The notes beneath the pieces were generated by a model. That model was given only the letters and a program-made list of their open reading frames with translations. It made no database searches and was not told the origin of the DNA. Positions 6,969 through 62,189 of a stretch of DNA of 64,000 bases are shown here, piece by piece. A program made the translations under genes and the position numbers. Position 1 is the first letter of the stretch. Each line of letters begins with the position of its first letter. Source of the stretch: an uncultured virus (IMG/VR IMGVR_UViG_3300029923_000016). Taxonomy: Duplodnaviria > Heunggongvirae > Uroviricota > Caudoviricetes. The stretch lies in IMG/VR virus record IMGVR_UViG_3300029923_000016. One strand, written 5' to 3'.

Positions 6969-7931
6969 TTAAGTCGCCGCAAAATAGGTGATACTAATAT
7001 TAAACCCGGACGTTGTACTTGGCGCAGGGCCACCCGTAAAAAAGTTTAAGTTACTGCCCGCAACATAGACTCCATATATTCCAGGGCTACCCAGCACAGT
7101 ACCGCTCGAAGAGCCAATTGCGGCAAAGGGTAAGGGTATAACTGAAAAGCTTGATATTTGTACGGATGTTGCCCCACGCAATAACATATTTAAGGTAACT
7201 TGCCTGCCAATTTTTGTATAGAGAAAAGAGGACGTGTTCGCTCCAACAAAGGTAATAGAGGCGCCTATAGTTGGCGTCCAGCTCCCCTCTTGGTAATCAT
7301 CCAGCGTATTAACATCCGTGCTGGCAACCTGTGTAGCAGGGAAGCCTACTTGCCCGCCCCGTAGGGCTAAGGTGCCGACGCCGGCGGTAACATTGGAAGA
7401 GGCCCCGGTGAACTTAACCAACCCTGTCGCAGCGATGGTATTAAAGGTAGGGGTGGTTGACGTCGAGACAGCAGTAGCATCGCCTACTGTCGCTATCGTA
7501 ATATTGGTGCCTGCCGTCACACTGGTGTTATTGAGCGCCTGAACGAAATTCACGGTATCACAATAGACCAGCACCGTTGCGCCGGCTTTAACAGAGACAG
7601 CACTGCCCGTTGCTCCACGAATACGGATATCAAAACCCCCCGTCGTCGCATTGCGGACAATATAGGTCTTCTCGACGAGCGGCGCAATGATGTCAAAAAT
7701 AGCGGCGGGTGTGCCCGTCGCCACCAATACCGCATTACGCGCCTGATTACTGATGCCGTCCGAATTAGTCAGCGTGACATTGGCTGTTGATATCACAATC
7801 GCCTGCACGCCGGTGATAGCCTGCTCTATCAAGGTGCCGAGATTGGTGTTGGTCAACGTGCCCCAGGTGCCGGTGTTCTCCCCCGTACCTAATAACGCTA
7901 TTTTTAAACTTGGGGAGTAGGAGGTTGCCAT
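6969..7931 (-). CDS. Tail fibre-like structural protein
   Basis: N-terminus TGENTGTWGTLTNTNLGTLIEQAI; LDDYQEGSWTPT...YTKIGRQV module common in fibres. Confidence 0.7.
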   Translation of the reverse strand: MATSYSPSLKIALLGTGENTGTWGTLTNTNLGTLIEQAITGVQAIVISTANVTLTNSDGISNQARNAVLVATGTPAAIFDIIAPLVEKTYIVRNATTGGFDIRIRGATGSAVSVKAGATVLVYCDTVNFVQALNNTSVTAGTNITIATVGDATAVSTSTTPTFNTIAATGLVKFTGASSNVTAGVGTLALRGGQVGFPATQVASTDVNTLDDYQEGSWTPTIGASITFVGANTSSFLYTKIGRQVTLNMLLRGATSVQISSFSVIPLPFAAIGSSSGTVLGSPGIYGVYVAGSNLNFFTGGPAPSTTSGFNISITYFAAT

Positions 7932-7953
7932 GCTAATTATCCTGTGGTATTAT
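7925..7953 (+). promoter_or_regulatory. Sigma70-like promoter for guide array 1
   Basis: TTGCCA-17 bp-TATTAT with extended TG. Confidence 0.7.
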
Positions 7954-7959
7954 ATTGTT

Positions 7960-8057
7960 TCGATGCGGTGCGATGCTATGCGTTGCGTTGCGCAGCATTG
8001 CGAAGCAAAGGTTACTTTAAAGTATCTAATCAAGCCTCGGTAAAACGAGGCTTTTTT
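7960..8057 (+). ncRNA. Putative non-contiguous guide RNA, array 1: (GCNNW)x9, palindrome, terminator
   Basis: GCGGT GCGAT GCTAT GCGTT GCGTT GCGCA GCATT GCGAA GCAAA at 7965-8009; TACTTTAAAGTA; terminal hairpin. Antisense to the late operon. Confidence 0.8.
8032..8057 (+). terminator. Rho-independent terminator
   Basis: AAGCCTCG-gtaaaa-CGAGGCTT followed by a T-run. Confidence 0.8.
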
Positions 8058-48837: not shown

Positions 48838-48935
48838 CCTAAGCGCTGCCTTGCCCTGCTTAGCCTAGCTTAGCGATGCGCTGCAAAGCAAAGACTAATT
48901 AATTAGTGGTCTACACTCTCTGACGAGAGTGTTTT
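48838..48935 (+). ncRNA. Putative non-contiguous guide RNA, array 2: (GCNNW)x10 plus two hairpins
   Basis: Pentamers at 48843-48892; ACTAATTAATTAGT; ACACTCTC-tgac-GAGAGTGT. Confidence 0.8.
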
Positions 48936-49269: not shown

Positions 49270-52055
49270 CTCTGGACGCAGAAACTTTTTATGCAAAAGA
49301 TTATTCCCTAAGTAAGCTGACGACCGAGCAATATATAACAGATGACCGCTTCGAGGTTATCGGTGTATCCACCAAGATTAACAACGAGCCCGCACAATGG
49401 TTCTCCGGAACATTTGATGAGACGAAAGCATACCTAAACCAATTTGATTGGGATGATATTGCATTAGTAAACCACAATAGTCTATTCGACTCAAGCATCC
49501 TTGGCCTGCGCTTCGGTATCCACCCTAAGAAGCTCATCGACACGCTAAGTATGTCAAGAGCAATCCATGGCATCGAGGTCGGGGGCAGTCTGGCCAAGCT
49601 GGCTGAGCATTACCAGCTGGGTGTCAAGGGCACTGAGGTCATCAATGCCTTGGGTAAACGTAAACAAGACTTTACTACTGAAGAACTAGCGCGCTATGGT
49701 GAGTACTGCAAGAACGACACCGAGCTAACGTACAAATTGTTTTACAAACTACTGCCGCACTTTACTAAATCTGAATTAGACATTATTGATATCACCCTGA
49801 AGATGGCCACACGACCGTTGTTGGAATTGGATAAAGCCGTGCTGACCGCACACCTTGCCGACGTGCAAGCTAAAAAACAAGCGCTCATGGACAAGGTCAT
49901 TGTCTCTCGAAAAGAGCTGATGTCCAACGTCAAATTGGCGCAACTGCTGATAGACTGTGGCGTGGAGCCGCCAATGAAGCTGTCGCCGACTACCGGTAAG
50001 CCGGCCTATGCGTTCGCTAAAACAGACGAGGGCTTCAAAGCATTACTTGACTCTGATAACCTTATGGTACAAACTATTGTTGCTGCTCGGTTGGGTGTTA
50101 AATCAACGCTTGAAGAAACGCGATGTGAAAGGGTTATTGGCATTGCAGAAAGGAACAGGTGTTGTCCTTTCCCGCTGAAGTATTACAGTGCCGCGACAGG
50201 GCGCTGGGCGGGGGCAGATAAAATCAATGTCCAGAATTTCCCGCGTAAGTCGCCGTTAAAGCGAGCGTTCAAGGCCCCCGAGGGTTATGTTATTCTGGGC
50301 GCGGACTTAAAACAAATCGAACTGCGCGTGGGCCTCTGGCTGTCGTCGGAGTGGGAGAAACTGGATATCCTGGCAGGCGGGCTGGACTTGTATAAAGTCT
50401 TCGCCTCAGAGGTACTGGGTGTTGCCTATGATGAGGTCACAGAAGACCAGCGCTTTATTGCCAAGACCTCCTGTATCGCAGAAGGACAGCTTGTCCTTAC
50501 CCCAAGGGGTTTAGTGCCTATAGAAAACATTTTGGTAGACGATAGAGTATGGGATGGGGTAGAATGGGTCTCACATGATGGGGTCATTTACCAAGGGGAG
50601 AGAGATGTCATCACATACCAAGGACTTACAGCCACTACCGACCATATTATATTTACGCAAACTGGTGAGACCCGCCAGTTCGGGGATGCCGCCAATTTAT
50701 CAGCGCGTCTCGCTACTACCGGAGATGATAGGCGCCCGCTTAAATTCATGGGAGATAATCAGTACCGAGATACAACAAACAGTGAAATCGGGGAGCATAA
50801 AGATACATGTGCGCTGCGTTTGTGGCAGAGAGCAGTGGGCGTATGTAGAGGCCATTATCAGAGGGCAGTCCAGACGATGCAAGCCTTGTGCAACACGAAC
50901 TCGGCACCAAAGGCAAGGTCATCTGATTGTCTGGGACAAGGTTACGGAGCTTATACAAAAACGGGCAACAGCTATGCAACAAAGATGCTGCAATCCTATG
51001 GACAAAGGCTACGCCAATTACGGAGGACGAGGGATTCAGTTTTTGTTTGGCTCAACGAAAGAGTGTGTAGAGTATATCAAAACGTTGCCTCTCTGGGATT
51101 CCGGGTTGGAGGTGGACCGAATCGACAACAATGGACACTATGCAGTAGGGAACTTGCGTATGGTGTCCCGCAAGGTACAGACCAGCAATCGTCGAAATAC
51201 GATGTGGATTTCGTGGCGAGAGGAAATGCTTCTGGTAGCGGACTGGGCAGAATCCCCTTACGCACTGAGAGTAACCTGCAAGTATGTTCAGCAGGGTTTA
51301 ACGGGGGAACAAATTATCCAGACCGCATGGGACTCAGTGGCGAAGAAATGCAAGAATTGGCGGGGGATAAAAAGAAAGTTAGAGTCTATGACATATTAAA
51401 CGCCGGCCCTAGGCATCGCTTCACGGTGTCTAACGTGTTAGTCCATAACTGTCTGTCATTGGTTTTTGGGGTGGGCGCGGCGAAGCTGCAAGCGGCTATT
51501 CTCTCGGGTATAGGTTTGGATGTGGGCATCGTCGAAAGTAAACGGATAGTGGAATTTTACCGAGACAACCACCCCGGTGTGAGAGCAGCATGGTCGGCGT
51601 GTGGTAACGCTATTAAGTTATTAACCACAGGCGGTGAGGGGATGATACTAACCGATAATTTAATCAAGGTCGAAGGGCGCAAGGGTATCCGGCTACCGTC
51701 AGGACTGTATTTAAAATACCCTGAGCTACAGTATTCTGAAGATGCGCAGACCCGGAAGCGGGAATATAAATACAAAATTAGAAGCAGTTGGGATAGATTG
51801 TACAGCGGTAAGTGTTTTAACAATATTACTCAGGCAACTGCACGCTGTATCTTTGCTGAGGCGCTACCCAAAATCAATAAGCATTACCCTATTGTATTAT
51901 TGATTCACGACGCCGCCTATGTCCTGGTGCCGGAGGGGGGTGTAGAGGAGGCGAAGCAGATTTTAGAAGAAATCATGTGCCAGCCGCCGGACTGGATGCC
52001 GGATATTCCCTTGGAGGTTGAGTTTCATTATGGCCGAACTCTTTTCGATTGTTAG
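49257..52055 (+). CDS. Family A DNA polymerase with intein
   Basis: LTLDAET exonuclease motif, TGRW, ADLKQIELR (motif A), RFIAKTS/CLSLVFG (motif B, split by intein), IHD (motif C). Confidence 0.92.
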   Translation: MQLLTLDAETFYAKDYSLSKLTTEQYITDDRFEVIGVSTKINNEPAQWFSGTFDETKAYLNQFDWDDIALVNHNSLFDSSILGLRFGIHPKKLIDTLSMSRAIHGIEVGGSLAKLAEHYQLGVKGTEVINALGKRKQDFTTEELARYGEYCKNDTELTYKLFYKLLPHFTKSELDIIDITLKMATRPLLELDKAVLTAHLADVQAKKQALMDKVIVSRKELMSNVKLAQLLIDCGVEPPMKLSPTTGKPAYAFAKTDEGFKALLDSDNLMVQTIVAARLGVKSTLEETRCERVIGIAERNRCCPFPLKYYSAATGRWAGADKINVQNFPRKSPLKRAFKAPEGYVILGADLKQIELRVGLWLSSEWEKLDILAGGLDLYKVFASEVLGVAYDEVTEDQRFIAKTSCIAEGQLVLTPRGLVPIENILVDDRVWDGVEWVSHDGVIYQGERDVITYQGLTATTDHIIFTQTGETRQFGDAANLSARLATTGDDRRPLKFMGDNQYRDTTNSEIGEHKDTCALRLWQRAVGVCRGHYQRAVQTMQALCNTNSAPKARSSDCLGQGYGAYTKTGNSYATKMLQSYGQRLRQLRRTRDSVFVWLNERVCRVYQNVASLGFRVGGGPNRQQWTLCSRELAYGVPQGTDQQSSKYDVDFVARGNASGSGLGRIPLRTESNLQVCSAGFNGGTNYPDRMGLSGEEMQELAGDKKKVRVYDILNAGPRHRFTVSNVLVHNCLSLVFGVGAAKLQAAILSGIGLDVGIVESKRIVEFYRDNHPGVRAAWSACGNAIKLLTTGGEGMILTDNLIKVEGRKGIRLPSGLYLKYPELQYSEDAQTRKREYKYKIRSSWDRLYSGKCFNNITQATARCIFAEALPKINKHYPIVLLIHDAAYVLVPEGGVEEAKQILEEIMCQPPDWMPDIPLEVEFHYGRTLFDC
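50472..51449 (+). mobile_element. Intein in DNA polymerase motif B (326 aa, C1...HN|C+1)
   Basis: CIAEGQLVLT (block A), TATTDH (block B), VYDI...F..SNVLVHN (blocks F/G). Confidence 0.9.
50686..51399 (+). CDS. HNH-type homing endonuclease overprinted in the +1 frame of the polymerase intein (frame open from 50575)
   Basis: RCVCG, C..C, MQQRC.NP...YANYGGRGI, EVDRIDNNGHY.VGNLR.V....Q..NRR. Confidence 0.85.
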   Translation: MPPIYQRVSLLPEMIGARLNSWEIISTEIQQTVKSGSIKIHVRCVCGREQWAYVEAIIRGQSRRCKPCATRTRHQRQGHLIVWDKVTELIQKRATAMQQRCCNPMDKGYANYGGRGIQFLFGSTKECVEYIKTLPLWDSGLEVDRIDNNGHYAVGNLRMVSRKVQTSNRRNTMWISWREEMLLVADWAESPYALRVTCKYVQQGLTGEQIIQTAWDSVAKKCKNWRGIKRKLESMTY

Positions 52056-52511: not shown

Positions 52512-52551
52512 ATTATATATGAAATTTATAGAGGGGGTTAATTTATGTGAG

Positions 52552-52691
52552 TCAAAGCTATGCAATGCTTAGCCGTGCACTGCGATGCTGAGCGATGCCG
52601 TGCCTAGCTATGCTCTGCGGAGCAATGCAAAGCCTAATTAATTAGGGTACTGAGTCTTCTCACGAGGGCTTAGTGCGGTAATTAATTTACC
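52552..52691 (+). ncRNA. Putative guide array 3: (GCNNW)x15 plus three hairpins
   Basis: Pentamers at 52557-52631; CCTAATTAATTAGG; 13-bp G-U-rich stem at 52647-52676; GGTAA..TTACC. Confidence 0.85.
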
Positions 52692-52798
52692 AAAGCGCTG
52701 CTGTGCCTTGCTATGCGAAGCCATGCGGAGCAATGCAAAGGCTATTTTAATAATAGCGTACTAGCCATTCCAACGAGTGGTTAGTGCGGTATTGTACC
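52692..52798 (+). ncRNA. Putative guide array 4: (GCNNW)x9 plus three hairpins
   Basis: Pentamers at 52695-52739; GCTATT..AATAGC; 13-bp stem at 52758-52787; GGTA..TACC. Confidence 0.85.
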
Positions 52799-52878
52799 AC
52801 TGCGATGCAGTGCGATGCCTTGCAGTGCCAAGCTTAGCATAGCACAGCGAAGCAAAGGCCGTGCCTTTTAGGCACGGC
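52799..52878 (+). ncRNA. Putative guide array 5: (GCNNW)x11 plus hairpin
   Basis: Pentamers at 52802-52856; GCCGTGCCT-ttt-AGGCACGGC. Confidence 0.82.
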
Positions 52879-52900
52879 ACCCTATTTTTAGGAGAATCAA

Positions 52901-53804: not shown

Positions 53805-54046
53805 ATGAACTACCCACAAACGGCCCCGGCAAATACGATGATATTTGTACGGTGGCGCGAGAAAGAACCGATGCGCAAGCCGCCATTGTTATTATAATTA
53901 ATGGCGTGTTGGGCAGTGGTTTCTCACTACAGTCGGAACATCCGGATGTAGTAGTCCAACTACCCGATATGCTTGAAACAATGGCTAAAGAAATACGTGA
54001 AATAATTACTGAGGAGAAGGCAGATGCCGTACAAAGACATGAATGA
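53801..54046 (+). CDS. Hypothetical protein
   Basis: GPGKYDD.CT..RE...A...G..GSGFS. Confidence 0.6.
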   Translation: MNELPTNGPGKYDDICTVARERTDAQAAIVIIINGVLGSGFSLQSEHPDVVVQLPDMLETMAKEIREIITEEKADAVQRHE

Positions 54047-54287
54047 CCGCGACCCGTCACACGAGGCCCAGGTCGAAAAGAAAAACCCCAAAGCCGTGGC
54101 CGCACGCAAGAAACGGCAGCAGGCTAGACAATTGTACGATAAACTCGATATCCCTAGAAAAGGTAAGGATATTGACCATATTAAGGGCACCGAAGCCGGC
54201 AACGCCAAGAGCAATCTCAGGCTACAGACGCCGTCACAGAACCGGTCATTCCCACGTAATTCAAATCACACTGCAAAGAGGAAGTAA
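54024..54287 (+). CDS. Small HNH endonuclease
   Basis: GKDIDH...GN.KSNLR......NRS. Confidence 0.8.
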   Translation: MPYKDMNDRDPSHEAQVEKKNPKAVAARKKRQQARQLYDKLDIPRKGKDIDHIKGTEAGNAKSNLRLQTPSQNRSFPRNSNHTAKRK

Positions 54288-54288
54288 C

Positions 54289-54501
54289 ATGCAAATATCA
54301 ACCAAGTCAGTGATATCACTGGCAGAGGAAGCGGGGCTCCCGCCCTCTTTAATCGAGCGCCACACCGATGCTTTAACGCATTTTGCACTCCGCCTGCGCA
54401 TGGCAGAACGGCGCGTTTGTCGTAATAAGCTGCGCAACTGGACCATAGACAAGTCCCTGAGCAAGCCGCCGCTACTTGAGGCGCTGACGGAGCATGATTG
54501 A
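54289..54501 (+). CDS. Hypothetical protein
   Basis: GAGGA RBS, MQISTKSV. Confidence 0.55.
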   Translation: MQISTKSVISLAEEAGLPPSLIERHTDALTHFALRLRMAERRVCRNKLRNWTIDKSLSKPPLLEALTEHD

Positions 54502-57139
54502 GATAATACATGATAAGGTGTTATCCGTCACCACGGATAGCCCTGACGACATTACAACAGTAATAGACAAGTACAAGATAGACAATGGCAAAGTGCTCAT
54601 CCCCTTTAATCTGGGGAATGTTCACATATTAAAAAACATGGGCTTTACGGTACCGTCGCCCATTGAGACTCGGTATGGGTGGCCTGGACTCCATAAACCC
54701 TTTTCGCATCAGCGCAGTATCGCTTCGTTTTTGACCTTGAATAGGCGGGCGTATAACTTTGGCGAATTAGGAATTGGCAAAACGAAAAGCGCTATCTGGG
54801 CTGCCGACTACCTACTAAGTATAGGTGCTATACGGCGTGTATTGGTTATCGCGCCGCTTAGCATCCTCGATTCTGCATGGAAGCAGGAGATATTCAGGAC
54901 AGTGATGCATCGGTCTGTTGATGTGGCGCATGGCACAAAGGAGAAACGCGAGGCAATAATCAATAGTAAAGCTGAGTTTATACTTATCAATTATGATGGC
55001 GTCGAGATTGTGATTGACGCTTTGGACCGAGGTAACTTTGATTTAATCATAATTGATGAGTGCTTTGTAGCTGGGACACGAGTTCTTACGCCTATTGGTT
55101 TTAGAGCTATTGAACAAATCGTAGAAGGTGATATAATAGAGACAAGTTGGGGGCCAAGACCCGTAACCAAAACGTTTCATAAACAATCATCCAACATAGT
55201 TGAAGTCGAGTTTGAAGATGGTATCAAAATTACCTGCACAGAAGAGCACCCTTTCTCAACCCGAAATGGTTGGGTCGCCGCAAAAGACCTCCTTGGTGAA
55301 ATATGTACTACATCAAGAGAATTGTCACACCTGCGGGACGCCGTTCGAGCAGAAGGTGTTTGCCAACCAGAAGGCATCTCACTATTGTTCTCGCGCATGT
55401 TGGAAAGAGTCGTACTATGTAGATTTGGTGTGCGGGCATTGCGGAAAAAAGTATCGAAAGGTAAAGAGTTACTTAAGAACCAACCCTGCAAAATATTGCA
55501 GCACAAAATGTACGGCGCAAGCGCGCTCTGCAAAAGTTATGGGGGAGACAGTTATGTGTCCGGTCTGCGGAGGGGAGCATTTTGTACCCCACAGAGTGTT
55601 GCGGTATCGTCCAGCATTAACCTGTTCCCGTTCCTGCGCCAGAAAGTTAGTGTGGCAAACAGAGCGAAAGCGGATGATGGATGGCGTACAGAAAGCAGCG
55701 GAGAAGCATCGGGGCCAACCCTCACCTCTCAGGGGGATTCCCCATACAGAAGAGCGCAAGCAACAACAGCGTGCGCTGGCAGTAGAGTTGGGGAGTCGGG
55801 AACCGTTCATGCGAGTGCGGGGCGGCAATGGTACGGGTATGTCAAGAGTAGAGTTACTAATGCGCTCAATACTCCCAGAAAGTTTCCAATACAACTATAT
55901 TGTAAAGACATTACAAAAGCGTGGAAGCGGGTATCCCTATCACTACAAGCTGGATTTCGCAGACCCTTTACAGATGATTTGTTTAGAAGTAGACGGGTAC
56001 AGCCACAATACAATACAGCGTCAAGAACAAGACAGGAAGAAAGAGGCGTTGCTTCAGGACTTAGGGTGGTCAGTGTTACGCGTATCCAACAAGGATGTCC
56101 TCGCGATGTTTGGAATCTGGAAGTAGCGGGCCCTCATGATTATATCGTTGAGGATGTGCTAGTCCATAACTGCAACTACATAAAGAACGTCCAAACCCGC
56201 AAGCACAAGTTCATTAACAAGTTGATTAAAGCGGATACCTGGTGCTGGCTAATGACCGCTACACCGGCTGCGCAGAGCCCTTGTGATGCCTATGGTCTGG
56301 CGCGTATGATAGACCCTAAATCAGTGCCTCGGTCTTATGGTGCATTTAGGGAGATGGTGCAGTATAAAATCAATATGTTTATGTGGATAAATAAACCCGA
56401 TGCAGAGCGAACAGTACACAGAGTTTTACAACCCGCAATTAGATTTACTAAATCAGAATGTTTGGATTTACCTGAGCTATTATATGAGACGCGTGAAGTA
56501 CCTCTGACCGCACAGCAAAACAAGTATTACAAACTTCTAAAAAAGGAAATGATGATTCTCGCTGCGGGTACAACGGTCACTGCGGCGAACGCAGCGGTTC
56601 TGATTGGAAAGTTGTTGCAAATTTCAGCGGGCAACTGTTATGATGAACGTGGGGATATTATTGAGTTTGATATCTCCAACCGATTCAGAGAGCTGTGTGA
56701 TATCATCCGTGAGACGCGTAACAAAACGATAGTGTTTGTGCAGTTTAGGAACTCCATCGAGCGAATCATGCGGATGCTGCAGGATGAAGGCATTACTTGC
56801 GAGGCCATTCACGGGAAAATCCCCATGAATAAGCGGGATGTCATCTTCTCTGATTTCCAAAACAAACCCGACCCGCAAGTGTTAATCATCCAGCCGCAAG
56901 CTGCGGCACACGGTGTGACATTGACAAAAGCGGATACGACAATATGGTTCGGGGTACCCATGTCCTTTGAAATTTACCAACAAGGGAATGGGCGTACGCA
57001 CCGCGCCGGACAACGCAACCAATGTACTGTTGTCCATTTGATAGGTAGTGATGTTGAGAAGAAAGTATTGAACGCGTTGGACAAAAAGAATATGTCCGCA
57101 ACGACTCTATTGGCATTATTTAAAGAGGTAATAAAATGA
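54494..57139 (+). CDS. SNF2-like DNA helicase with intein
   Basis: GIGKT, IIIDE|C (Walker B split by intein), TATP, AHGVTLT, QGNGRTHR.GQ. Confidence 0.92.
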   Translation: MIEIIHDKVLSVTTDSPDDITTVIDKYKIDNGKVLIPFNLGNVHILKNMGFTVPSPIETRYGWPGLHKPFSHQRSIASFLTLNRRAYNFGELGIGKTKSAIWAADYLLSIGAIRRVLVIAPLSILDSAWKQEIFRTVMHRSVDVAHGTKEKREAIINSKAEFILINYDGVEIVIDALDRGNFDLIIIDECFVAGTRVLTPIGFRAIEQIVEGDIIETSWGPRPVTKTFHKQSSNIVEVEFEDGIKITCTEEHPFSTRNGWVAAKDLLGEICTTSRELSHLRDAVRAEGVCQPEGISLLFSRMLERVVLCRFGVRALRKKVSKGKELLKNQPCKILQHKMYGASALCKSYGGDSYVSGLRRGAFCTPQSVAVSSSINLFPFLRQKVSVANRAKADDGWRTESSGEASGPTLTSQGDSPYRRAQATTACAGSRVGESGTVHASAGRQWYGYVKSRVTNALNTPRKFPIQLYCKDITKAWKRVSLSLQAGFRRPFTDDLFRSRRVQPQYNTASRTRQEERGVASGLRVVSVTRIQQGCPRDVWNLEVAGPHDYIVEDVLVHNCNYIKNVQTRKHKFINKLIKADTWCWLMTATPAAQSPCDAYGLARMIDPKSVPRSYGAFREMVQYKINMFMWINKPDAERTVHRVLQPAIRFTKSECLDLPELLYETREVPLTAQQNKYYKLLKKEMMILAAGTTVTAANAAVLIGKLLQISAGNCYDERGDIIEFDISNRFRELCDIIRETRNKTIVFVQFRNSIERIMRMLQDEGITCEAIHGKIPMNKRDVIFSDFQNKPDPQVLIIQPQAAAHGVTLTKADTTIWFGVPMSFEIYQQGNGRTHRAGQRNQCTVVHLIGSDVEKKVLNALDKKNMSATTLLALFKEVIK
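55061..56170 (+). mobile_element. Intein in helicase Walker B (370 aa, C1...HN|C+1)
   Basis: CFVAGTRVLT (block A), ITCTEEHPF (block B), VWNLEV...Y...VLVHN (blocks F/G). Confidence 0.9.
55266..56126 (+). CDS. Zinc-finger plus Vsr/DUF559-like endonuclease overprinted in the +1 frame of the helicase intein (frame open from 55200)
   Basis: Three C..CG...CS..C repeats; YKLDFA...LEVDGYSH.....DRKKE..L..LGWSVLR. Confidence 0.85.
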   Translation: MVGSPQKTSLVKYVLHQENCHTCGTPFEQKVFANQKASHYCSRACWKESYYVDLVCGHCGKKYRKVKSYLRTNPAKYCSTKCTAQARSAKVMGETVMCPVCGGEHFVPHRVLRYRPALTCSRSCARKLVWQTERKRMMDGVQKAAEKHRGQPSPLRGIPHTEERKQQQRALAVELGSREPFMRVRGGNGTGMSRVELLMRSILPESFQYNYIVKTLQKRGSGYPYHYKLDFADPLQMICLEVDGYSHNTIQRQEQDRKKEALLQDLGWSVLRVSNKDVLAMFGIWK

Positions 57140-57315
57140 CAGCAAGCGAAATAGAAGATTTTAATGATTTATTATCTGATGCTGAGATGAACGCCAGCAC
57201 GGATTGGGAACTCGAATTCACCGGTAGTATGAGGGCGCATTATAAAAAATATGGCGATGACACCTATGTGTCCGCCAAGCAATTACATCACCTGGAGAAG
57301 ATTGCAAATGTGTGA
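57136..57315 (+). CDS. Small hypothetical protein (59 aa)
   Basis: GAGG RBS, ATGA overlap; TDWELEF..S......YG....VS.KQ...LEKI. Confidence 0.6.
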   Translation: MTASEIEDFNDLLSDAEMNASTDWELEFTGSMRAHYKKYGDDTYVSAKQLHHLEKIANV

Positions 57316-57486
57316 GACGTTACATTTGATATCCATTGTACTGCTTATTGGCGCTATCGGTATGATGTGGGTGCTACACAGTGTAGGCAAGGCGCTGAAT
57401 AAACAAGATGAGCGGGATAAGAGTTGACAAACTAGCTTTACAACTGTATAATAATCTCACAGTCAACAACTAAACAGGACAAGACT

Positions 57487-57879
57487 ATGCCCGATGTAGA
57501 AAAGATAGTATCCGTCTATCTGAAAATCAGAAACAAGAAAGCGGAAATCACCAAGGCTTATGAAGCGCAGATAGCAGAGCTTGACGCTAAACAAGATATG
57601 CTCCAAAGCGCATTGCTTGATTTGTGTAAAGAACTGGGCGTTGAATCAGTTCGTACAGAATCCGGCACTGCCTTTAGGACTATCAAAGAACGAGTCTTCG
57701 TATCGGATTGGGCAGCTGTAGAGCAATTCATCTACGACAATGACGCGTTTGATTTGGTCGAGAAAAGGCTTGCCCAGAACGCGGCTAAGTCATGGATAAA
57801 AGACTTCCCAGACAAACCTATCCCGTCTGTGGTTGTAGACAGAAAGTTTACTATAACGGTTAGGAGAGGTAAGCCATGA
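57487..57879 (+). CDS. Replication-module hypothetical protein
   Basis: TTGACA-17 bp-TATAAT at 57424; YLKIR...SVRT.SGT...DW. Confidence 0.7.
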   Translation: MPDVEKIVSVYLKIRNKKAEITKAYEAQIAELDAKQDMLQSALLDLCKELGVESVRTESGTAFRTIKERVFVSDWAAVEQFIYDNDAFDLVEKRLAQNAAKSWIKDFPDKPIPSVVVDRKFTITVRRGKP

Positions 57880-58262
57880 GCGATTATTCTAATAATGAAC
57901 TGTTACATCCGGACCTTCCTGAACCGGACATTTTCTTAACCGAAAAAGAAGTCAGGGAAATTTTAGGGTTATCCCGGCAGTCTTGTTATAATATGCGCCG
58001 AGCCGGCATCTTCACCAGCCACTATATCAAAGGCAAAGTGAAATACTCGGCCAAAGAAGTCGAAGCGTACATTGAGCGCAAATCATTGCCTGATATCCGT
58101 GTGACGCCAACAATCAGAACGCGTGCCAAACCCGGCGAACCGAAGAAGGAAAGAGTTTATACCAAGCCTGCCCCGTCTGTTGCCAAGATGAGCAAGCGCA
58201 CCCCACCCCCTGCTACGATGCCAGAACCATCGTATGAGGACTTTGATAATTACTTTATATAA
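57876..58262 (+). CDS. Excisionase/AlpA-like HTH protein
   Basis: FLTEKEVREILGLSRQSCY...G....Y...EVEAYI. Confidence 0.7.
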   Translation: MSDYSNNELLHPDLPEPDIFLTEKEVREILGLSRQSCYNMRRAGIFTSHYIKGKVKYSAKEVEAYIERKSLPDIRVTPTIRTRAKPGEPKKERVYTKPAPSVAKMSKRTPPPATMPEPSYEDFDNYFI

Positions 58263-58271
58263 GAGAGCACC

Positions 58272-59249
58272 ATGAGCAACTTAAGCATATTTAAAAACGG
58301 CGGCGGCGTCCCTGCCCATCTTCAAAAAAGAGAGCTGTCTGCCGCCACCAAAGCCTTGATGGGTGGTTTTGAAAACCGCCGTATCTCTATCCGGGGCGGG
58401 GTCTTCCGCAAGGTCATCAATGGTCAGGAGGTGGGTTCCATCCCCGAACGGGCACTGAACGTGGTCATTGTTGGCGTCGCCGAGCATACTTCCCGGCAGT
58501 ATTACAAAGCCGCCTATCAGGAGAATGCCGACCCGGTGGCACCGGACTGCTACAGTGCTGACGGCATCACGCCGATGGCAACAGCGACGGCGATTCAAGC
58601 AGCCACCTGCGCCGCCTGTCCACAGAATATCGCAGGCTCAGGCCAAGGTGATTCCAAAGCCTGCCGCTTCCAACGCCGCATTGCGGTGGTCTTGGAGAAA
58701 AACCTGGAAGATGGTGAGGTTTATGAAATGACGCTGGCAGCGACCAGTCTGTTTGGTGGCAAGGGCAAGCCTGACCCCGACAAGATGGGCATGCGCCAGT
58801 ACGCCAACTTTTTGGGTGGTTACGGCGTCAACATCGACGCCGTGGTCACTGAATTGCGCTTTGATTTGGACGCCGCCACCCCGAAATTACTGTTCGCGGC
58901 ATTAAGACCGTTAGAGACGGATGAGCTGTTGCTGGTTGAGGAATATTCCAAATTGCCGGAGACTATCCAGGCTATCACATACAGCTTTGGTGGGGTGGTG
59001 GTGAAACCGGCGGCTGCCGAATTGCCCTTTATCCAGCCTCGCCCAGCTCCTGCCCCCGCAGCTGCGTCAGTGCCTGAGCCAGAGCCCGTCGTTCCGGCAC
59101 GCACAAGGGTCACTCGAAATCGCCCCGCCGCAGCCGCTGCGCCTGCCCCTGAAGTCATTCCGGAGCCGATACGCCGTGAAAGCCACGCCGCGCCGCAACC
59201 CGCCTCGACAAATATTGATGAGCTGCTATCGGAGTGGGGCGACGAGTGA
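58272..59249 (+). CDS. Putative ssDNA-binding/annealing (SSB-like) protein
   Basis: RISIRGG.FR, PDCYS.DG, C..CPQN..GS...KACR, Pro/Ala linker, acidic tail DELLSEWGDE. Confidence 0.65.
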   Translation: MSNLSIFKNGGGVPAHLQKRELSAATKALMGGFENRRISIRGGVFRKVINGQEVGSIPERALNVVIVGVAEHTSRQYYKAAYQENADPVAPDCYSADGITPMATATAIQAATCAACPQNIAGSGQGDSKACRFQRRIAVVLEKNLEDGEVYEMTLAATSLFGGKGKPDPDKMGMRQYANFLGGYGVNIDAVVTELRFDLDAATPKLLFAALRPLETDELLLVEEYSKLPETIQAITYSFGGVVVKPAAAELPFIQPRPAPAPAAASVPEPEPVVPARTRVTRNRPAAAAAPAPEVIPEPIRRESHAAPQPASTNIDELLSEWGDE

Positions 59250-59255
59250 TATAAT
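59247..59255 (+). promoter_or_regulatory. Extended -10 promoter for guide array 6
   Basis: TG-A-TATAAT overlapping the upstream stop codon. Confidence 0.65.
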
Positions 59256-59261
59256 TTTTCT

Positions 59262-59370
59262 TCCATAGCGATGCGATGCCTAGCCTAGCTTAGCGTTGCG
59301 ATGCGATGCTATGCAGTGCAAAGGCCACTTTAAAGTGGCAAGAACGAGCGGCTTAGGCCGCTCCTTTTTC
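59262..59370 (+). ncRNA. Putative guide array 6: (GCNNW)x11, palindrome, terminator
   Basis: Pentamers at 59268-59322; GCCACTTTAAAGTGGC; GAGCGGC-ttag-GCCGCTC plus T-run. Confidence 0.87.
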
Positions 59371-59390
59371 CTCTTCGGGACACATCAAAA

Positions 59391-62189
59391 ATGGACCCAC
59401 ATGATTTCCTCAGCTCCATCCTACCCAACACCGGCCCGTACTGTTTCACCCTCATTAAGAACGGCCTCGTTAATCAACAATTCATTGATGCTATCCCCAC
59501 TGATGCCGAGCTCGTAGAGTTCGCCAACGACTACGCCGACCACGATATTTATTTCGCCGTCGCCAGCTTCCAAACCAAAACCAGCCGCACCCAAGCCAAT
59601 GTCGCCCAACTTAAATCCTTATGGATTGATTTGGACGTCGGCGGCAAATCAGCCTATGCTACCAAGAAGGATGCCAAACAAGCGCTTGATAAATTCGTCG
59701 CTGCTGCCGGGCTTCCTGCACCTACGCTGGTAGACTCCGGTGGTGGTGCACATATCTATTGGCCACTAACACAGGCTATTGATATCCCTGAGTGGAAGGC
59801 GTTGGTTCTGGCATTACTAAGCAAAGCGACGGAGCACGGGTTTAGCATTAAAGACATCGGTGTTTCCAAAGACAGCGCCCGCATTCTACGGGTTCCCGGA
59901 ACAACTAACCATAAGTTCGACCCACTGCGACTCGTCGCCGTTATCAAGACTGGCACACCAACCGACCCGACTGTACTGGGGAGTTTGCTTAGCGTCGGCG
60001 CACCCATCCCGAATAATCCCAAAGTTAGAACGAATCTAACTTCACAGGCGGTAAGTAAACTCTCTCCGTTAACCCGCGCCTTGATGTCTCACCAAGGCCA
60101 GCAATACGGGCAGGTGATTACCCGGTCGATGCAGGGAACAGGTTGTGTGCAGTTGGCTAATGCTTATATCAATCAGGATGATTTAACGGGTATGCATTGG
60201 TGGAGCGTGATGTCTATCCCGCAGTTCACCGAGCAACGCCAGGAAGCGGTGCATAACCTCTCCTATCAGCACAGCAACTATTCAATCGAAGCCACCTTGC
60301 TTAAGGCCGAGCGCACCGACGGGCCGTATGCCTGCGCCAAGATAAGCGAGCATCGTCCGGAGCTCTGCACCGCCTGCCCTCATTACGGGAATATCACTTA
60401 CCCTTTTTTGCTCGATAGGACCCCCCGCCCGGAGCAGGTCCACCCACTCAATGAAGACATTGCCCGCAGCGGCTTACCCCCCATAGTTTATCCGTATTTA
60501 CCCGGCGCGCGGGCGGGTATTTATGTTAAACAATTTATCCCTAACAAAGACGGCGACGGTGGCTCCATGGCCATCAAACACGTCTACAATCATACCTTTT
60601 ACGTGTCAGGGCGCTGCCTTGACCCGCACGAGGGAGAGCTGGTCCACATGAAACTGATACGCCCCCACGACGGTGTTAAGGACTTTTCCGCGCCGTTATC
60701 CGAGATTACCGCCAAGGAGAAATGCAGGGAGCACTTCTCCAAACAAGGCATGGCCGCAGATGCGTTTAAAATGAAGATGCTGATGGAATACACCACCGAG
60801 TTTTGCAGTTACTTACAAGAGATCGACAAAGCCGACAATATCCGTGTCCAGTTCGGTTGGCATGACAATGACACCTGCTTCATTGTCGGCAACCGGGAGA
60901 TTCGCAAAGACGGCATCTATTACTCAATGCCCTCCAACGATACCCTGCAAGCCTCTGTCCAGTTTACCAAAGTCGGTACCTTGGCGGCATGGCAATCGGT
61001 CGCTCAGCGCTACGCAGGGCCTGATAATGAGGTACGGGCATTTGCCTTAATGATAGGCTTGGGCTGCCCGATGTTCAAATACTTGGGTCACGGCGGCGCT
61101 ATCCTGCACTTGACCAACACACTATCGGGTGTCGGTAAGTCTGCCGCCCAAGGCTTGGCATTGAGCGCCTGGGGTCACCCCGACAAGGGCATGAGTCTGA
61201 TGAAAGACACCCTGAACATGCGTCTGCATCGCCTGGGTGTGATGAACAATGTGGTGTTCTGCATGGATGAAATCACCCAGATGACCGCCGAAGAAGTCGG
61301 TACCCTGGCGTACTCGATTAGCCAAGGCCGAGGCAAAGGCCGCATGGAGGCGTCGGCCAACCGTGAGCGGGCCAATAACACCACCTGGAGCGTGCCGTGC
61401 ATTACCTCGGGCAACGCCAATATCCATGACGTCTTAAAAGCCAACAGCATGAACTCCGATGGCGAGGTCATGCGGGTGCTGGAGATGCGCGTCGAGCCCA
61501 TCACCGGCATCACCAAGGAAGAGTCTGACCGACTGTTTATTGATGTCCTGCAGAACAACTACGGGCATGCGGGGGAAATCATTGTCCAGTATATCCTCAA
61601 CCATCGGGAGGAGTGCTTCACGCGTCTGAAGGCCATCCAGAAAGAGTTTGATTTGGCCATGGGCTACCTTAACCCCGAGCGCTATTATTCATTGCTCACA
61701 ACCACAGCCTTATGGGGTGGGGAGATTGGCAACATGCTCGGCCTGATTGATATCCCGCTGGCGCCTATTGTAGATTACTTGATGAAACAAAACACAGACA
61801 CCCGTAGCGAGGTGCGTACGCCTGAGCAAATATCGGGTAATACCATCGGGACATTTATCAACGAGCACGCCGGCAATCATACCTTGGTGATTGACATGCG
61901 CCCGTCGAATATCCCCGGTGACCTACGCCCGGCGGTACAAATGCCGCGTGGCGAGCTGATGATACGCATTGAAACCGATACCAAAATGATTTATATCACC
62001 ACTACCAGCCTGCGCAGTTGGTGCAGCAAGAAGCGGGTGTCGTTCAATGACACCGTCGAGGAGCTCAAGACCAAAGGTGCTTTGATAACCACCGGTCAAG
62101 TGAAGATGGCCGAAGGCACGCAGACATCATCGCCCGCAGTACGGGCGCTTATTTTAGACAAGACAATTTTAGATGAGATGGGGTTATAA
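59391..62189 (+). CDS. Primase-helicase (RepB-like primase plus DUF927-type ATPase)
   Basis: WIDLD, SGGGAHIYW, RILRVPGT.N.K, SGVGKS, MDE, NNYGHAG. Confidence 0.88.
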   Translation: MDPHDFLSSILPNTGPYCFTLIKNGLVNQQFIDAIPTDAELVEFANDYADHDIYFAVASFQTKTSRTQANVAQLKSLWIDLDVGGKSAYATKKDAKQALDKFVAAAGLPAPTLVDSGGGAHIYWPLTQAIDIPEWKALVLALLSKATEHGFSIKDIGVSKDSARILRVPGTTNHKFDPLRLVAVIKTGTPTDPTVLGSLLSVGAPIPNNPKVRTNLTSQAVSKLSPLTRALMSHQGQQYGQVITRSMQGTGCVQLANAYINQDDLTGMHWWSVMSIPQFTEQRQEAVHNLSYQHSNYSIEATLLKAERTDGPYACAKISEHRPELCTACPHYGNITYPFLLDRTPRPEQVHPLNEDIARSGLPPIVYPYLPGARAGIYVKQFIPNKDGDGGSMAIKHVYNHTFYVSGRCLDPHEGELVHMKLIRPHDGVKDFSAPLSEITAKEKCREHFSKQGMAADAFKMKMLMEYTTEFCSYLQEIDKADNIRVQFGWHDNDTCFIVGNREIRKDGIYYSMPSNDTLQASVQFTKVGTLAAWQSVAQRYAGPDNEVRAFALMIGLGCPMFKYLGHGGAILHLTNTLSGVGKSAAQGLALSAWGHPDKGMSLMKDTLNMRLHRLGVMNNVVFCMDEITQMTAEEVGTLAYSISQGRGKGRMEASANRERANNTTWSVPCITSGNANIHDVLKANSMNSDGEVMRVLEMRVEPITGITKEESDRLFIDVLQNNYGHAGEIIVQYILNHREECFTRLKAIQKEFDLAMGYLNPERYYSLLTTTALWGGEIGNMLGLIDIPLAPIVDYLMKQNTDTRSEVRTPEQISGNTIGTFINEHAGNHTLVIDMRPSNIPGDLRPAVQMPRGELMIRIETDTKMIYITTTSLRSWCSKKRVSFNDTVEELKTKGALITTGQVKMAEGTQTSSPAVRALILDKTILDEMGL

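What the first reader, a model, noticed from the sequence alone, without database searches (positions are those of the whole stretch)
58920..59322. Array 6 decodes to DELLLVEEYSK of the upstream SSB-like gene, the clearest case
Seen: NN series GA GA CT CT TT GT GA GA TA AG AA against the gene at 58920-58952, GAT GAG CTG TTG CTG GTT GAG GAA TAT TCC AAA. All 11 residues are compatible and 18 of 22 bases match in the gapped register about 320 bp away. All mismatches are silent family swaps (Leu, Leu, Ser). This directly shows that the arrays store sequence in a two-of-three code.
Basis: seen in the sequence. Interest (0 to 1): 0.93.

Follow-up and report, generated by a model that had tools for sequence, protein, structure and literature searches.

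The report
Orphan phage VIPR guide-RNA array
The five-base repeat array is a guide RNA of the recently described phage VIPR system; its variable base pairs spell, two bases per codon, a stretch of the neighbouring replication gene, and they fit two relatives' copies better than the phage's own, which differs only by synonymous Leu and Ser codon swaps.

Summary
Array 6 (59268-59322) is 11 units of GCNNW. Its NN series matches 58920-58952 at 18 of 22 bases in an NNx register, in frame with the upstream gene. All 11 codons are amino-acid compatible (DELLLVEEYSK). The three mismatched codons are Leu, Leu and Ser six-fold family swaps.

At base level this is only borderline: 5 of 500 shuffles reach 18 of 22, and p is about 0.06 without the constant last unit. 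At amino-acid level it is far beyond chance: 0 of 1000 shuffles exceed 9 of 11, and composition predicts 7e-8 such sites.

The 'two-of-three code' is the published 1-nt-skip rule of VIPR systems (three 2026 bioRxiv preprints). There, a Cas7-like Vipr protein reads vrRNAs made of pentanucleotide repeats. This window is most of a 71.7-kb peat phage with six such vrRNA genes on a WGC/NN scaffold, and I found no vipr gene, so they are 'solo' vrRNAs.

Two relatives that lack the array carry alleles that fit the guide better (20 and 19 of 22). This suggests the guide is aimed at kin and the resident allele is synonymously recoded. The kind of element is known; the linkage of a guide to its own recoded target is not mentioned in the parts of the preprints I read or term-searched.

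The parts
59247..59255 (+). Extended -10 promoter-like element TGATATAAT. It overlaps the stop codon of the upstream gene. A start of the RNA near 59262-59265 is inferred.
   Evidence: Read from the sequence. The consensus scanner, which needs both hexamers, found no full -35/-10 promoter. TATAAT is kept in relatives L177 and L178. TATTAT or TATAAT also precedes arrays 1, 2 and 3.
59268..59322 (+). Array 6, the guide region of a vrRNA: 10 variable GCNNW units plus the constant last unit GCAAA.
   Evidence: Over 66 units of the six arrays, position 1 is G in 65, position 2 is C in 66, position 5 is A or T in 66, and positions 3-4 are variable.
59324..59339 (+). 3' tail hairpin directly after GCAAAG(G).
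   Evidence: RNA fold (z -4.2 for tail plus terminator). A hairpin directly follows GCAAAG(G) in five of the six tails; for array 4 the minimum-energy fold pairs otherwise, though CTATT/AATAG is self-complementary there (read from the sequence).
59346..59372 (+). Intrinsic terminator: a 7-bp GC-rich stem followed by a T run.
   Evidence: 1 found, 0.2 expected in shuffles.
58920..58952 (+). Resident near-target of array 6: codons for DELLLVEEYSK. 18 of 22 guide bases match and the skipped base is the wobble position.
58272..59249 (+). It has four conserved Cys and an acidic C-terminus. Its function is not established.
   Evidence: PHROG 27714, unknown function. No Pfam, NCBIfam or PDB sequence match. 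The fold model is poor (pLDDT 52) and Foldseek gave no hit with E <= 0.001.
7965..8009 (+). Array 1 (9 units), with its own -10, tail hairpin and terminator (to 8056), between two genes on the minus strand.
7912..7938 (+). Best genome-wide match of array 1 (13 of 16). On the other strand it covers the start codon and first six codons (MATSYSP) of gene 6969-7931, 27 bp from the array.
   Evidence: Weak on its own: amino-acid-level p is about 0.07.
48843..48892 (+). Array 2 (10 units) with tail and terminator, upstream of the endonuclease and DNA polymerase genes.
   Evidence: No target found.
52557..52631 (+). Array 3 (15 units), the first of three tandem vrRNAs behind one promoter region.
51771..51815 (+). 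Best genome-wide match of array 3, in frame in the DNA polymerase gene (YKIRSSWDRLYSGKC). 19 of 30 bases match and 11 of 15 codons are compatible, four of them by Arg, Arg, Leu and Ser family swaps.
52695..52739 (+). Array 4 (9 units).
52802..52856 (+). Array 5 (11 units). Its tail hairpin is followed by the ribosome-binding site of the PD-(D/E)XK nuclease gene.

Best explanation
Array 6 is the guide part of a small RNA of the VIPR type (vrRNA).

Inferred transcript: it starts at an extended -10 element that overlaps the stop codon of the upstream gene. It has 10 variable WGC/NN units, a constant GCAAAGG junction and a tail hairpin, and it ends at an intrinsic terminator, about 110 nt in all.

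Mechanism, taken from the published system: one Cas7-like Vipr protomer holds each constant trinucleotide and presents each NN pair. The NN pairs base-pair with double-stranded DNA while every third target base, the codon wobble, is skipped.

Shown here: the NN series specifies codon positions 1 and 2 of an 11-codon stretch encoding DELLLVEEYSK in the 325-aa gene just upstream. Because the guide has the sense of the coding strand, it would pair with the template DNA strand and not with the mRNA.

Shown here: the phage's own copy misses 4 of 22 positions, all by Leu or Ser six-fold codon swaps that leave the protein unchanged. Two relatives that lack the array fit better (20 and 19 of 22).

Inferred: the guide is a weapon against close relatives, and the resident allele is a synonymously recoded, less sensitive copy kept in tight linkage with the guide.

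Shown by search: neither the window nor the rest of the 71.7-kb genome holds a recognisable vipr gene. Inferred: the six vrRNAs are 'solo' guides that must use a Vipr supplied by another element in the same cell.
For: Anatomy:
- Six strand-specific arrays of 9-16 GCNNW units: 43 pattern matches against 0.16 expected.
- Each array ends in GCAAAG(G/C/A). A hairpin follows directly in five of the six tails, and all six tails fold more stably than shuffles (z -3.4 to -6.2).
- A terminator follows array 6.

Known system:
- VIPR vrRNAs are 9-16 pentanucleotide repeats followed by a 3' tail. They obey a 1-nt skip aligned to wobble positions. Alternative scaffolds, including YNNNG, are listed. GCNNW rotates to C-NN-W-G.

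Same repeat type next to a RAMP elsewhere:
- An IMG/VR scan found 133 or more loci with such arrays.
- 49 flanking ORFs form one protein family.
- Its model (pLDDT 93) matches Csm3/Cas7 chains, best E 1e-5, 69 hits at E <= 0.001.
- Homologues flanked by arrays occur in three bacterial MAG contigs.

Correspondence:
- 11 of 11 compatible codons; 0 of 1000 shuffles exceed 9; expectation 7e-8.
- Only the 1-nt skip gives the outlier.
- Relatives score 20 of 22 (L178, the same contig as L169) and 19 of 22 (L177), and neither has an array downstream.

Support from other arrays:
- Array 3 has 11 consecutive perfect units (23 of 28) in frame in the portal gene of a provirus.
- In L075, a 7-unit guide (the variable units of an 8-unit array) fits an ORF 520 bp away at 13 of 14, with one Arg swap.

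No vipr:
- HMM, tblastn, hhalign and the genome search all found nothing. The same model finds vipr in two other array-bearing records at E 6e-40 and 6e-30.
- Solo vrRNAs in VIPR-null phages are reported in bioRxiv 10.64898/2026.10.15.759431 (abstract, section 8 and Discussion read).
Against: - No transcript evidence. Contigs of three metatranscriptome runs do not cover the arrays, and the promoter is read by eye (one search found no full -35/-10).
- No perfect target exists in IMG/VR: 0 exact hits for the 22-base gapped pattern.
- 'Relatives fit better' rests on two contigs and on differences of 1-2 bases.
- The resident match (82%, or 80% without the constant unit) passes the preprint's own 80% threshold for a natural target. 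The resident gene may therefore be bound rather than immune. The preprint reports no self-hits at 80% or more in its own sets.
- The skip rule has been shown experimentally only for GGY/NN systems, not for this WGC/NN scaffold.
- No Vipr donor is identified.
- Silencing a rival's diffusible replication protein would be complemented in a mixed infection, so a cis effect has to be assumed.
- Arrays 2, 4 and 5 have no identified target.
- Two VIPR-positive phages tested the same way show no near-self targets.
Confidence: 0.6

Rival explanations
1. Self-regulation. The vrRNA guides a Vipr complex to the phage's own gene 58272-59249 to tune or time its transcription. Arrays 1 and 3 would do the same at the start of gene 6969-7931 and in the polymerase gene. 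The imperfect match would set a weak, graded repression.
For: - For arrays 1, 3 and 6 the best genome-wide place lies 27 to 790 bp from the array.
- Array 1 covers a start codon, a good place for repression.
- The resident match of array 6 (82%) passes the 80% threshold used in the preprint.
Against: - The phage encodes no recognisable Vipr, so it could not regulate itself on its own.
- A regulator would be expected to match its operator. Here the mismatches are exactly those that preserve the protein, and two relatives without the array match better.
- The preprint found no self-targets at 80% or more in its sets.
- Array 3 fits a foreign portal gene better (23 of 28) than the resident polymerase (19 of 28).
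Confidence: 0.15
2. Relic. The array is a former weapon or a captured enemy guide that no longer acts, because vipr has been lost. The similarity to the neighbouring gene records a past conflict in which this lineage's gene was the target and escaped by codon swaps.
For: - No vipr in the genome.
- The October 2026 preprint traces VIPR-null phages to a deletion of vipr-vap1.
- No perfect target was found.
- Relatives carry a different cassette at the same site.
Against: - All 66 units of the six arrays keep C at position 2 and A or T at position 5, and 65 keep G at position 1. The tails and a terminator after array 6 are also kept, which argues for selection.
- The arrays sit at four separate loci, not at one decaying locus.
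- Identical copies occur in several IMG/VR and metagenome contigs.
Confidence: 0.15
3. Coincidence. The 18 of 22 match is what a search with six arrays and free choice of register finds by chance, and the arrays have nothing to do with the gene.
For: At base level the match is only borderline: 5 of 500 shuffles, or 6 of 100 without the constant unit, with six arrays tried.
Against: - 11 of 11 amino-acid compatible codons; 0 of 1000 shuffles exceed 9; expectation 7e-8.
- The same site is the top hit in two relatives (0 of 100 shuffles reach it).
- The site lies 316 bp from the array.
Confidence: 0.02
4. A binding platform for some other multimeric RNA-binding protein, like the 11 (G/U)AG triplets with 2-nt spacers bound by TRAP. 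It would control termination at the downstream terminator and hence primase expression.
For: - The 3+2 periodicity, the 11 units and the terminator between promoter and primase gene.
- Relatives keep a promoter-hairpin-terminator leader at this site without repeats.
Against: - The variable bases carry gene-specific information, which a pure protein-binding platform would not.
- The same repeat type sits next to Cas7-like RAMP genes in many phages.
- No alternative antiterminator pairing was seen in the fold.
- The TRAP features are recalled, not tested.
Confidence: 0.03

Closest known systems
VIPR systems (Vipr protein plus vrRNA), type II of Escherichia phage SUSP1 and a Pseudomonas fulva prophage; bioRxiv 10.64898/2026.04.26.720920 and 10.64898/2026.04.26.720927
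   Same: - 9-16 tandem pentanucleotide units with a constant trinucleotide and a hypervariable NN.
- A 5' repeat tract and a structured 3' tail.
- Single and tandem vrRNA genes in intergenic gaps of a phage.
- Target read with one base skipped, aligned to codon wobble.
- Targets in essential genes of competing phages.
   Different: - The constant part is WGC, not GGY. It probably falls in the preprint's 'YNNNG' class, but fig. S17 could not be seen.
- The junction is GCAAAGG plus simple hairpins; a pseudoknot was not examined.
- No vipr or vap gene in the genome.
- The arrays are scattered over four loci of a 71.7-kb peat phage.
- One guide lies beside a near-matching copy of its own target.
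Solo (orphan) vrRNAs of satellites and VIPR-null phages; bioRxiv 10.64898/2026.10.15.759431
   Same: - vrRNA genes in a phage without vipr.
- Self-match lower than the match to relatives.
- Wobble-aligned targeting.
   Different: - Those are SUSP1-family Enterobacteriaceae phages with 1-2 solo vrRNAs at the deleted vipr-vap1 site. They aim at vipr, other vrRNAs, satellites or host REP decoys.
- Here six solo vrRNAs sit at four sites. The recognisable targets are a replication-module gene of close relatives and a provirus portal gene.
- Term searches in two of the preprints gave no hit for six-fold codon swaps: 'Leu' in 720920; 'sixfold', 'six-fold', 'recod' in 759431. 'adjacent' occurs twice in 759431, neither time about a resident near-target. 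720927 was not term-searched.
Class 1 CRISPR crRNA with Cas7 backbone (Csm3/Cmr4/Cas7)
   Same: The array-adjacent protein family folds like Csm3/Cas7. One protomer per repeat unit displaces bases periodically.
   Different: - No CRISPR repeats, spacers or adaptation genes.
- The period is 5 nt on the guide against 3 nt on the target, instead of 6 against 6.
- The guide information is interleaved with the scaffold.
Homing endonuclease genes of T-even-like phages that sit beside a resistant allele of their own target (an analogy from general knowledge, recalled)
   Same: A weapon gene lies next to a target gene whose resident allele differs at the recognition site. Relatives lacking the insert carry a more sensitive allele. 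The window is rich in HNH endonuclease genes and holds an intein.
   Different: The weapon here is an RNA guide that needs a protein from elsewhere. Neither cleavage nor gene conversion is shown.

Membership tests
VIPR vrRNA | Tandem pentanucleotide repeats: a constant trinucleotide alternating with a hypervariable NN | tested here: met
   66 units: G 65/66, C 66/66, W 66/66, and 16 different NN. The constant part is WGC instead of GGY. The preprint lists a YNNNG variant.
VIPR vrRNA | 9-16 repeat units per RNA | tested here: met
   9, 10, 15-16, 9, 11 and 11 units.
VIPR vrRNA | Repeat tract followed by a conserved structured 3' tail | tested here: met
   GCAAAG(G/C/A) ends all six arrays, and a hairpin follows directly in five of six minimum-energy folds (array 4 folds otherwise); z -3.4 to -6.2. 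The internal tails of arrays 3 and 4 share GTACT...TTAGTGCGGTA...TACC with each other and a looser version (GCGTA...TGCGGTATT.GTACCAC) with L045-type loci next to vipr. A pseudoknot was not examined. An alignment-based covariation test failed because the loop lengths differ.
VIPR vrRNA | Made as a discrete RNA of about 100 nt | tested here: inconclusive
   A -10 element read by eye and a terminator predict about 110 nt. RNA-run contigs gave no cover of the arrays, which proves nothing.
VIPR vrRNA | NN pairs specify a target with a 1-nt skip aligned to codon wobble | tested here: met
   Array 6 scores 11/11 codons in frame and only skip 1 stands out. Array 3 has 11 perfect consecutive units in frame in a portal gene. 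This is in silico only.
VIPR system (complete locus) | A vipr gene (small RAMP with G-loop and thumb) in the locus or genome | tested here: not met
   No hit in the window or in the 7.7 kb that complete the genome, nor in G001. The best window ORF (57487-57879, E 0.005-0.02) has only weak Mu Gam/Gp157-like Pfam hits, and I saw no glycine-rich loop in its sequence. The same model finds vipr in other array-bearing records. A very divergent RAMP cannot be excluded.
VIPR system (complete locus) | The Vipr-vrRNA complex binds DNA and silences transcription | not testable with these tools
   Needs expression and reporter or binding assays.
Solo vrRNAs of VIPR-null phages (bioRxiv 2026.10.15.759431) | A vrRNA on an element with no vipr on the contig | tested here: met
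   Whole circular 71,705-bp genome searched.
Solo vrRNAs of VIPR-null phages (bioRxiv 2026.10.15.759431) | Targets are vipr genes, other vrRNAs, satellites or host decoy repeats | tested here: not met
   No significant match of any of the six guides to the vipr-bearing loci held. The recognisable targets are a replication-module gene of relatives and a provirus portal gene. The host genome is unknown, so decoys could not be tested.
TRAP-type RNA-binding attenuation leader | (G/U)AG triplets with 2-3 nt spacers that overlap an antiterminator, plus a TRAP protein | tested here: not met
   The triplet is WGC. No alternative pairing between array and terminator was seen in the fold. The family features are recalled from memory.
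CRISPR array | Direct repeats of 23-50 bp separated by unique spacers | tested here: not met
   The period is 5 nt. Rfam found no family.

The most novel reading that the evidence does not exclude
vrRNA genes of this kind behave as RNA-guided 'homing' or marker-exclusion cassettes. Each guide is inserted next to the gene it attacks, and the linked resident allele is made insensitive by the only synonymous changes a wobble-blind guide can see: Leu, Ser and Arg six-fold codon swaps. In mixed infections, with a Vipr supplied by another element, the complex blocks or breaks the sensitive allele of a relative in cis. Repair from the attacker then copies the recoded allele together with the guide. 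This would explain three things: the occupied site with a poorer match here, the empty site with a better match in L177 and L178, and the abundance of homing endonucleases and an intein in this phage. It would also show the natural escape route from a recognition code that has been described as preventing mutation-based escape.
Probability: 0.15. Interest if true: 0.85.

Novelty: new variant of a known kind. Interest (0 to 1): 0.62.

Why it matters
As a kind of element it is therefore already explained by 2026 preprints.

This case adds four things:
- The WGC/NN scaffold is widespread: 133 or more IMG/VR loci, with a Cas7-like protein beside many of them.
- Solo guides occur outside enterobacterial phages, six of them in one peat phage.
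- A guide can lie beside a near-matching copy of its own target, and that copy differs only by Leu and Ser codon-family swaps.
- The last point gives a concrete, testable answer to how a gene can escape a guide that ignores wobble positions without changing its protein, and how a phage may tell self from kin.

If the linkage reflects gene conversion, vrRNAs would be a new class of selfish, RNA-guided homing element.

Tried and rejected
1. My first idea, a TRAP-like protein-binding leader or sponge RNA, was dropped once the VIPR preprint was found and the NN bases proved informative.
2. Rfam at gathering threshold gave 0 families. There are no tRNAs. blastn against GenBank phages found no match.
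3. vipr hunt:
   - ORF 33022-33657 hit one array-bearing locus (L037, 30% identity), but it is not in the RAMP family.
   - ORF 57487-57879 gave E 0.005-0.02 over 60 residues. It has only weak Mu Gam/Gp157-like Pfam hits and I saw no G-loop.
   - ORF 18367-18693 gave two tblastn hits at E 0.6-2.7, taken as noise.
   - hhalign of the RAMP profile against 172 ORFs gave a best probability of 2.9%.
   - A glycine-loop regex found nothing convincing.
4. Naming the 325-aa gene: no PDB, Pfam or NCBIfam match. The AlphaFold model has pLDDT 52. The best Foldseek hit has E 0.08; RPA, gp32 and PrgE-type OB folds appear only at E 0.2-0.5. 'SSB-like' stays unconfirmed.
5. Sequencing runs: 21 peat DNA runs hold the stretch. 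Contigs of three RNA runs cover parts of genes but not the arrays. A DNA run holds polymerase fragments about 87% alike but does not cover the target sites. This is no evidence either way.
6. The exact 22-base gapped pattern of array 6 gave 0 hits in IMG/VR. A 16-base seed (units 4-11) gave 30 hits. The best was 20 of 22 in five contigs with one sequence, read through a stop codon, which is about what chance predicts.
7. Seeds for arrays 5 and 4 gave 33 and 16 hits, numbers expected by chance. Array 4's perfect hits fall in helicase, HNH and other genes that share AWLYDQGK. The resident helicase is unlike at that site.
8. Array 4's best resident place (20400-20426, minus strand, 15 of 18) lies between genes and is not significant (p 0.05 with the constant unit, 0.40 without).
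9. The near-self test on two VIPR-positive phages (G002, G003; 8 arrays) found no outlier.
10. Of 86 distinct arrays in IMG/VR loci with 1-kb flanks, 7 have an own-locus best within the top 5% of other loci. Three of the 7 are copies of this phage; the others include L075, L152 and L046.
11. Covariation of the tails by alignment failed.
It was repeated with 5 close rows.
Full report
**What is at the coordinates.**
- Between the stop codon of ORF 58272-59249 and the start of the primase-helicase gene (59391), the plus strand reads as follows: TGATATAAT; then eleven 5-nt units GCNNW (59268-59322); then GG and a 6-bp hairpin (59324-59339); then a GC-rich terminator hairpin with a T run (59346-59372).
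- The window holds five more such arrays, all with the same polarity: 7965-8009, 48843-48892, 52557-52631, 52695-52739 and 52802-52856.
- The pattern of five GC dinucleotides 5 nt apart (GCNNNGCNNNGCNNNGCNNNGC) gives 43 matches against 0.16 expected.
- Over 66 units, position 1 is G in 65, position 2 is C in all, position 5 is A or T in all, and positions 3-4 take 16 different values.
- Every array ends in GCAAAG. A hairpin follows directly in five of the six tails, and all six tails fold more stably than shuffles (z -3.4 to -6.2).
- Arrays 1, 2 and 6 have their own terminators. Arrays 3-5 are in tandem, separated by a conserved three-hairpin module.
- The window is a phage: terminase, portal, capsid and tail genes on the minus strand; polymerase, helicase, primase and nucleases on the plus strand.
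- With 7,705 bp fetched from a near-identical IMG/VR record, the genome closes to 71,705 bp.

**Is the match more than chance?**
- 58920-58952 (GAT GAG CTG TTG CTG GTT GAG GAA TAT TCC AAA) is in frame with the gene and matches 18 of 22 guide bases.
- It is the best place in the window on either strand. Still, 5 of 500 permutations of the dinucleotide order reach 18 somewhere.
- Without the last unit, which is constant in all arrays, the match is 16 of 20 and 6 of 100 permutations reach it. With six arrays tried, base counts alone would not persuade.
All 11 codons encode a residue that the guide pair allows. The three mismatched codons are Leu TTG for CT, Leu CTG for TT and Ser TCC for AG.
- Across all six frames of the whole genome, the compatible-codon score is 11 at this site and at most 8 elsewhere. 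In 1000 permutations the best score was 6 to 9. Composition predicts 7e-8 fully compatible sites.
- Skips of 0, 2 or 3 nt give no outlier for any array.

**What it is.**
- A full-text search led to bioRxiv 10.64898/2026.04.26.720920. I read its Results, Discussion and two of the four parts of the Methods.
- VIPR systems consist of a roughly 20-kDa RAMP protein (Vipr) and vrRNAs. A vrRNA has 9-16 tandem pentanucleotide repeats, GGY alternating with hypervariable NN, followed by a conserved 3' tail.
- The NN pairs recognise double-stranded DNA with one target base skipped per unit, usually the codon wobble. Either strand can be targeted and no PAM is needed. The natural targets are competing phages, satellites and prophages.
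- The Methods mention alternative scaffolds NNNGG, YNNNG and NNNNG. GCNNW rotates to C-NN-W-G.
- The companion cryo-EM preprint (720927; first of two parts of its Results read) shows one protomer per repeat. The three constant bases are flipped out, and 5 guide nucleotides sit against 3 target nucleotides.

**The same repeat type has a RAMP partner elsewhere.**
- In their 1-kb flanks, 49 ORFs belong to one family of about 195 residues that ends in a glycine-rich loop.
- A model built from 21 members has pLDDT 93. Foldseek places it with Csm3, Cmr4 and type VII Cas7 chains (best E 1e-5; 69 chains at E <= 0.001).
- Close homologues flanked by AGCNN arrays also lie on contigs of Dechloromonas, Methylomarinum and Flavobacteriales MAGs.
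- The internal tails of arrays 3 and 4 share GTACT...TTAGTGCGGTA...TACC with each other and a looser version with arrays that sit beside this RAMP.

**No vipr in this phage.**
- Four methods found nothing in the window or in the rest of the genome: an HMM from 32 array-adjacent RAMPs, a second HMM from the 21-row alignment, tblastn with every seed, and hhalign against 172 ORFs.
- The genome search found no candidate in G001. It did find the gene in two other array-bearing records at E 6e-40 and 6e-30.
- The only weak hit is ORF 57487-57879 (E 0.005-0.02). It has weak Mu Gam/Gp157-like Pfam hits, and I saw no glycine loop in it.
- The six vrRNAs are therefore 'solo'. A third preprint (10.64898/2026.10.15.759431; abstract, section 8 and Discussion read) reports solo vrRNAs on satellites and on 346 VIPR-null enterobacterial phages. 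It says that their self-match is lower than their match to rivals.

**Whom does array 6 aim at?**
- The 325-aa protein has many homologues.
- Among 80 metagenome loci with up to 10 kb of flank on each side, only the copies of this same phage carry arrays.
- The two closest relatives whose DNA I could fetch are 81% identical in protein. One is L178, the same contig as L169; the other is L177.
- At the site of array 6 they have a different promoter-hairpin-terminator cassette.
- At the homologous codons they match the guide at 20 of 22 and 19 of 22, against 18 for the resident. L178 has AGT where the resident has TCC, and TTG where the resident has CTG.
- In a 1.7-Mb set of relatives' loci these are the top hits, and 0 of 100 shuffles reach them.
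- Every guide pair except the fourth is present in at least one of the three alleles. The decoded peptide equals the resident peptide.
- The simplest reading is that the guide fits an unsampled allele of a very close relative, and that the resident allele differs by the only synonymous changes such a guide can detect.
- No perfect site exists in IMG/VR.
- The guide has the sense of the coding strand, so it would pair with the template DNA strand and not with the mRNA.

**The other arrays.**
- Array 3: its best genomic place is in frame in the polymerase gene, 740 bp upstream (51771). 19 of 30 bases match and 11 of 15 codons are compatible, while the next best place scores 8 and 0 of 200 shuffles exceed 9. 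Four of the codons are Arg, Arg, Leu and Ser family swaps. Distant polymerases match at the same site, 20-21 of 30.
- Array 3, external hit: a 16-base seed scan of IMG/VR gave 8 hits. Two of them are homologous to each other and extend to 11 consecutive perfect units (23 of 28). They lie in frame in a Phage_portal gene (Pfam E 6e-82) of a 38-kb provirus. The chance of that extension among 8 hits is about 0.002 by my estimate. This fits the published picture of guides aimed at essential genes of competitors. It leaves the polymerase similarity unexplained.
- Array 1: its best place (13 of 16, unique) lies 27 bp from the array. On the other strand it covers the start codon and the first six codons of gene 6969-7931. 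On its own it is weak, p about 0.07.
- Arrays 2, 4 and 5: no target was identified.
- Other phages: L075 shows the array 6 pattern again, with a 7-unit guide at 13 of 14 to an ORF 520 bp away and the one mismatch an Arg swap. L152 shows 21 of 28.
- Two VIPR-positive phages show no near-self match.

**How it most likely works.**
- Shown: the anatomy; the information content of the NN pairs; the better fit of relatives; the absence of a recognisable vipr.
- Taken from the preprints: filament assembly on the constant trinucleotides, gapped pairing to DNA, and transcriptional silencing.
- Inferred: the RNA is made from the -10 at 59250. It is loaded by a Vipr from a co-infecting or resident element. 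It acts on relatives' alleles. The resident allele is protected by its four mismatches.
- Main doubts: 82% identity passes the preprints' threshold for a target, so self-binding is possible. The rule is untested for the WGC scaffold. No RNA evidence was obtainable. Silencing a diffusible replication protein would be complemented in a mixed infection, so a cis effect (roadblock, break or gene conversion) has to be assumed.

**Comparison and novelty.**
- As a kind of element this is known since 2026, and earlier notes of this scan reached the same family on other genomes.
- It fails the test for a complete VIPR locus (no vipr). It fits the 'solo vrRNA' class, but not that class's reported targets.
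- Two things appear new: the linkage of a guide with a near-matching, synonymously recoded copy of its own target, and codon-family swaps as the escape route from a wobble-blind guide.
- The basis for 'new' is my reading of the sections named above and two term searches. 'Leu' gave no hit in 720920. 'sixfold', 'six-fold' and 'recod' gave no hit in 759431, where 'adjacent' occurs twice but not about a resident near-target. 720927 was not term-searched. The preprints' supplements could not be seen.

Noticed in passing
window 54494-57139: The SNF2-type helicase gene is interrupted by an intein. Hint/intein-splicing domains lie at about residues 190-559, between the ResIII and SNF2/Helicase_C parts.
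   Followed up: no
window 49257-52055: In the 932-aa family A DNA polymerase, Pfam and PHROG matches cover residues 2-405 and 756-921. About 350 residues between them are unassigned apart from a short PHROG 26005 match at 425-470. This may be an inserted element.
   Followed up: no
window 1354-2139, 21071-22600, 30601-31281, 44575-45141, 48961-49269: There are many free-standing HNH or endonuclease VII-like genes spread through structural and replication modules, which suggests active homing in this phage lineage. PHROGs also labels 46454-47617 an HNH endonuclease, but Pfam finds DUF2201 domains there.
   Followed up: no
window 41172-42408: A DNA methyltransferase-like gene is followed directly by an IceA-family gene (Pfam ICEA, E 7e-36). 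This looks like a restriction-modification-like pair in a phage.
   Followed up: no
window 45154-47617: A MoxR-like AAA ATPase is followed by a DUF2201 metallopeptidase/VWA protein.
   Followed up: no
L177:2980-3200 and L178:5080-5300 (relatives), homologous to window 59247-59390: Relatives keep the TATAAT at the stop codon, the terminator T run and the primase ribosome-binding region. Between them they carry an unrelated hairpin cassette of about 95 nt instead of the array. L177 holds a possible 2-unit remnant (TGCAT AGCAT).
   Followed up: partly
window 51771-51815 versus L300/L303 (portal gene of provirus G004): The resident polymerase peptide KIRSSWDRLYSGK and a foreign portal peptide RIRTDWERLYSGN both resemble the array 3 guide. 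The two proteins are otherwise unrelated. I have no explanation for why both fit.
   Followed up: partly
G002:C1 around 71822; G003:C1 5798, 11093, 11880: VIPR-positive phages carry very long arrays of 26-31 AGCNN units that run straight into the ribosome-binding site of the next gene, without a GCAAAGG-hairpin tail. G002 has two RAMP genes 3 kb apart.
   Followed up: no
window 20400-20426 (minus strand): The best genomic place for array 4 has six consecutive perfect units (TG CT TA GA CA GG) in an intergenic stretch downstream of the capsid module. It is not significant.
   Followed up: partly
L218:1-393: A distant relative of the phage (325-aa protein 43% identical, 65-kb contig) has a partial RAMP/Vipr hit (E 8.5e-8) about 10 kb upstream of that gene. 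VIPR-positive members therefore exist in the wider phage group.
   Followed up: no
window 50000-59999: The phage is held complete in 21 peat-metagenome DNA runs. One of them also holds polymerase fragments about 87% alike, so related strains co-occur in the same sample.
   Followed up: partly
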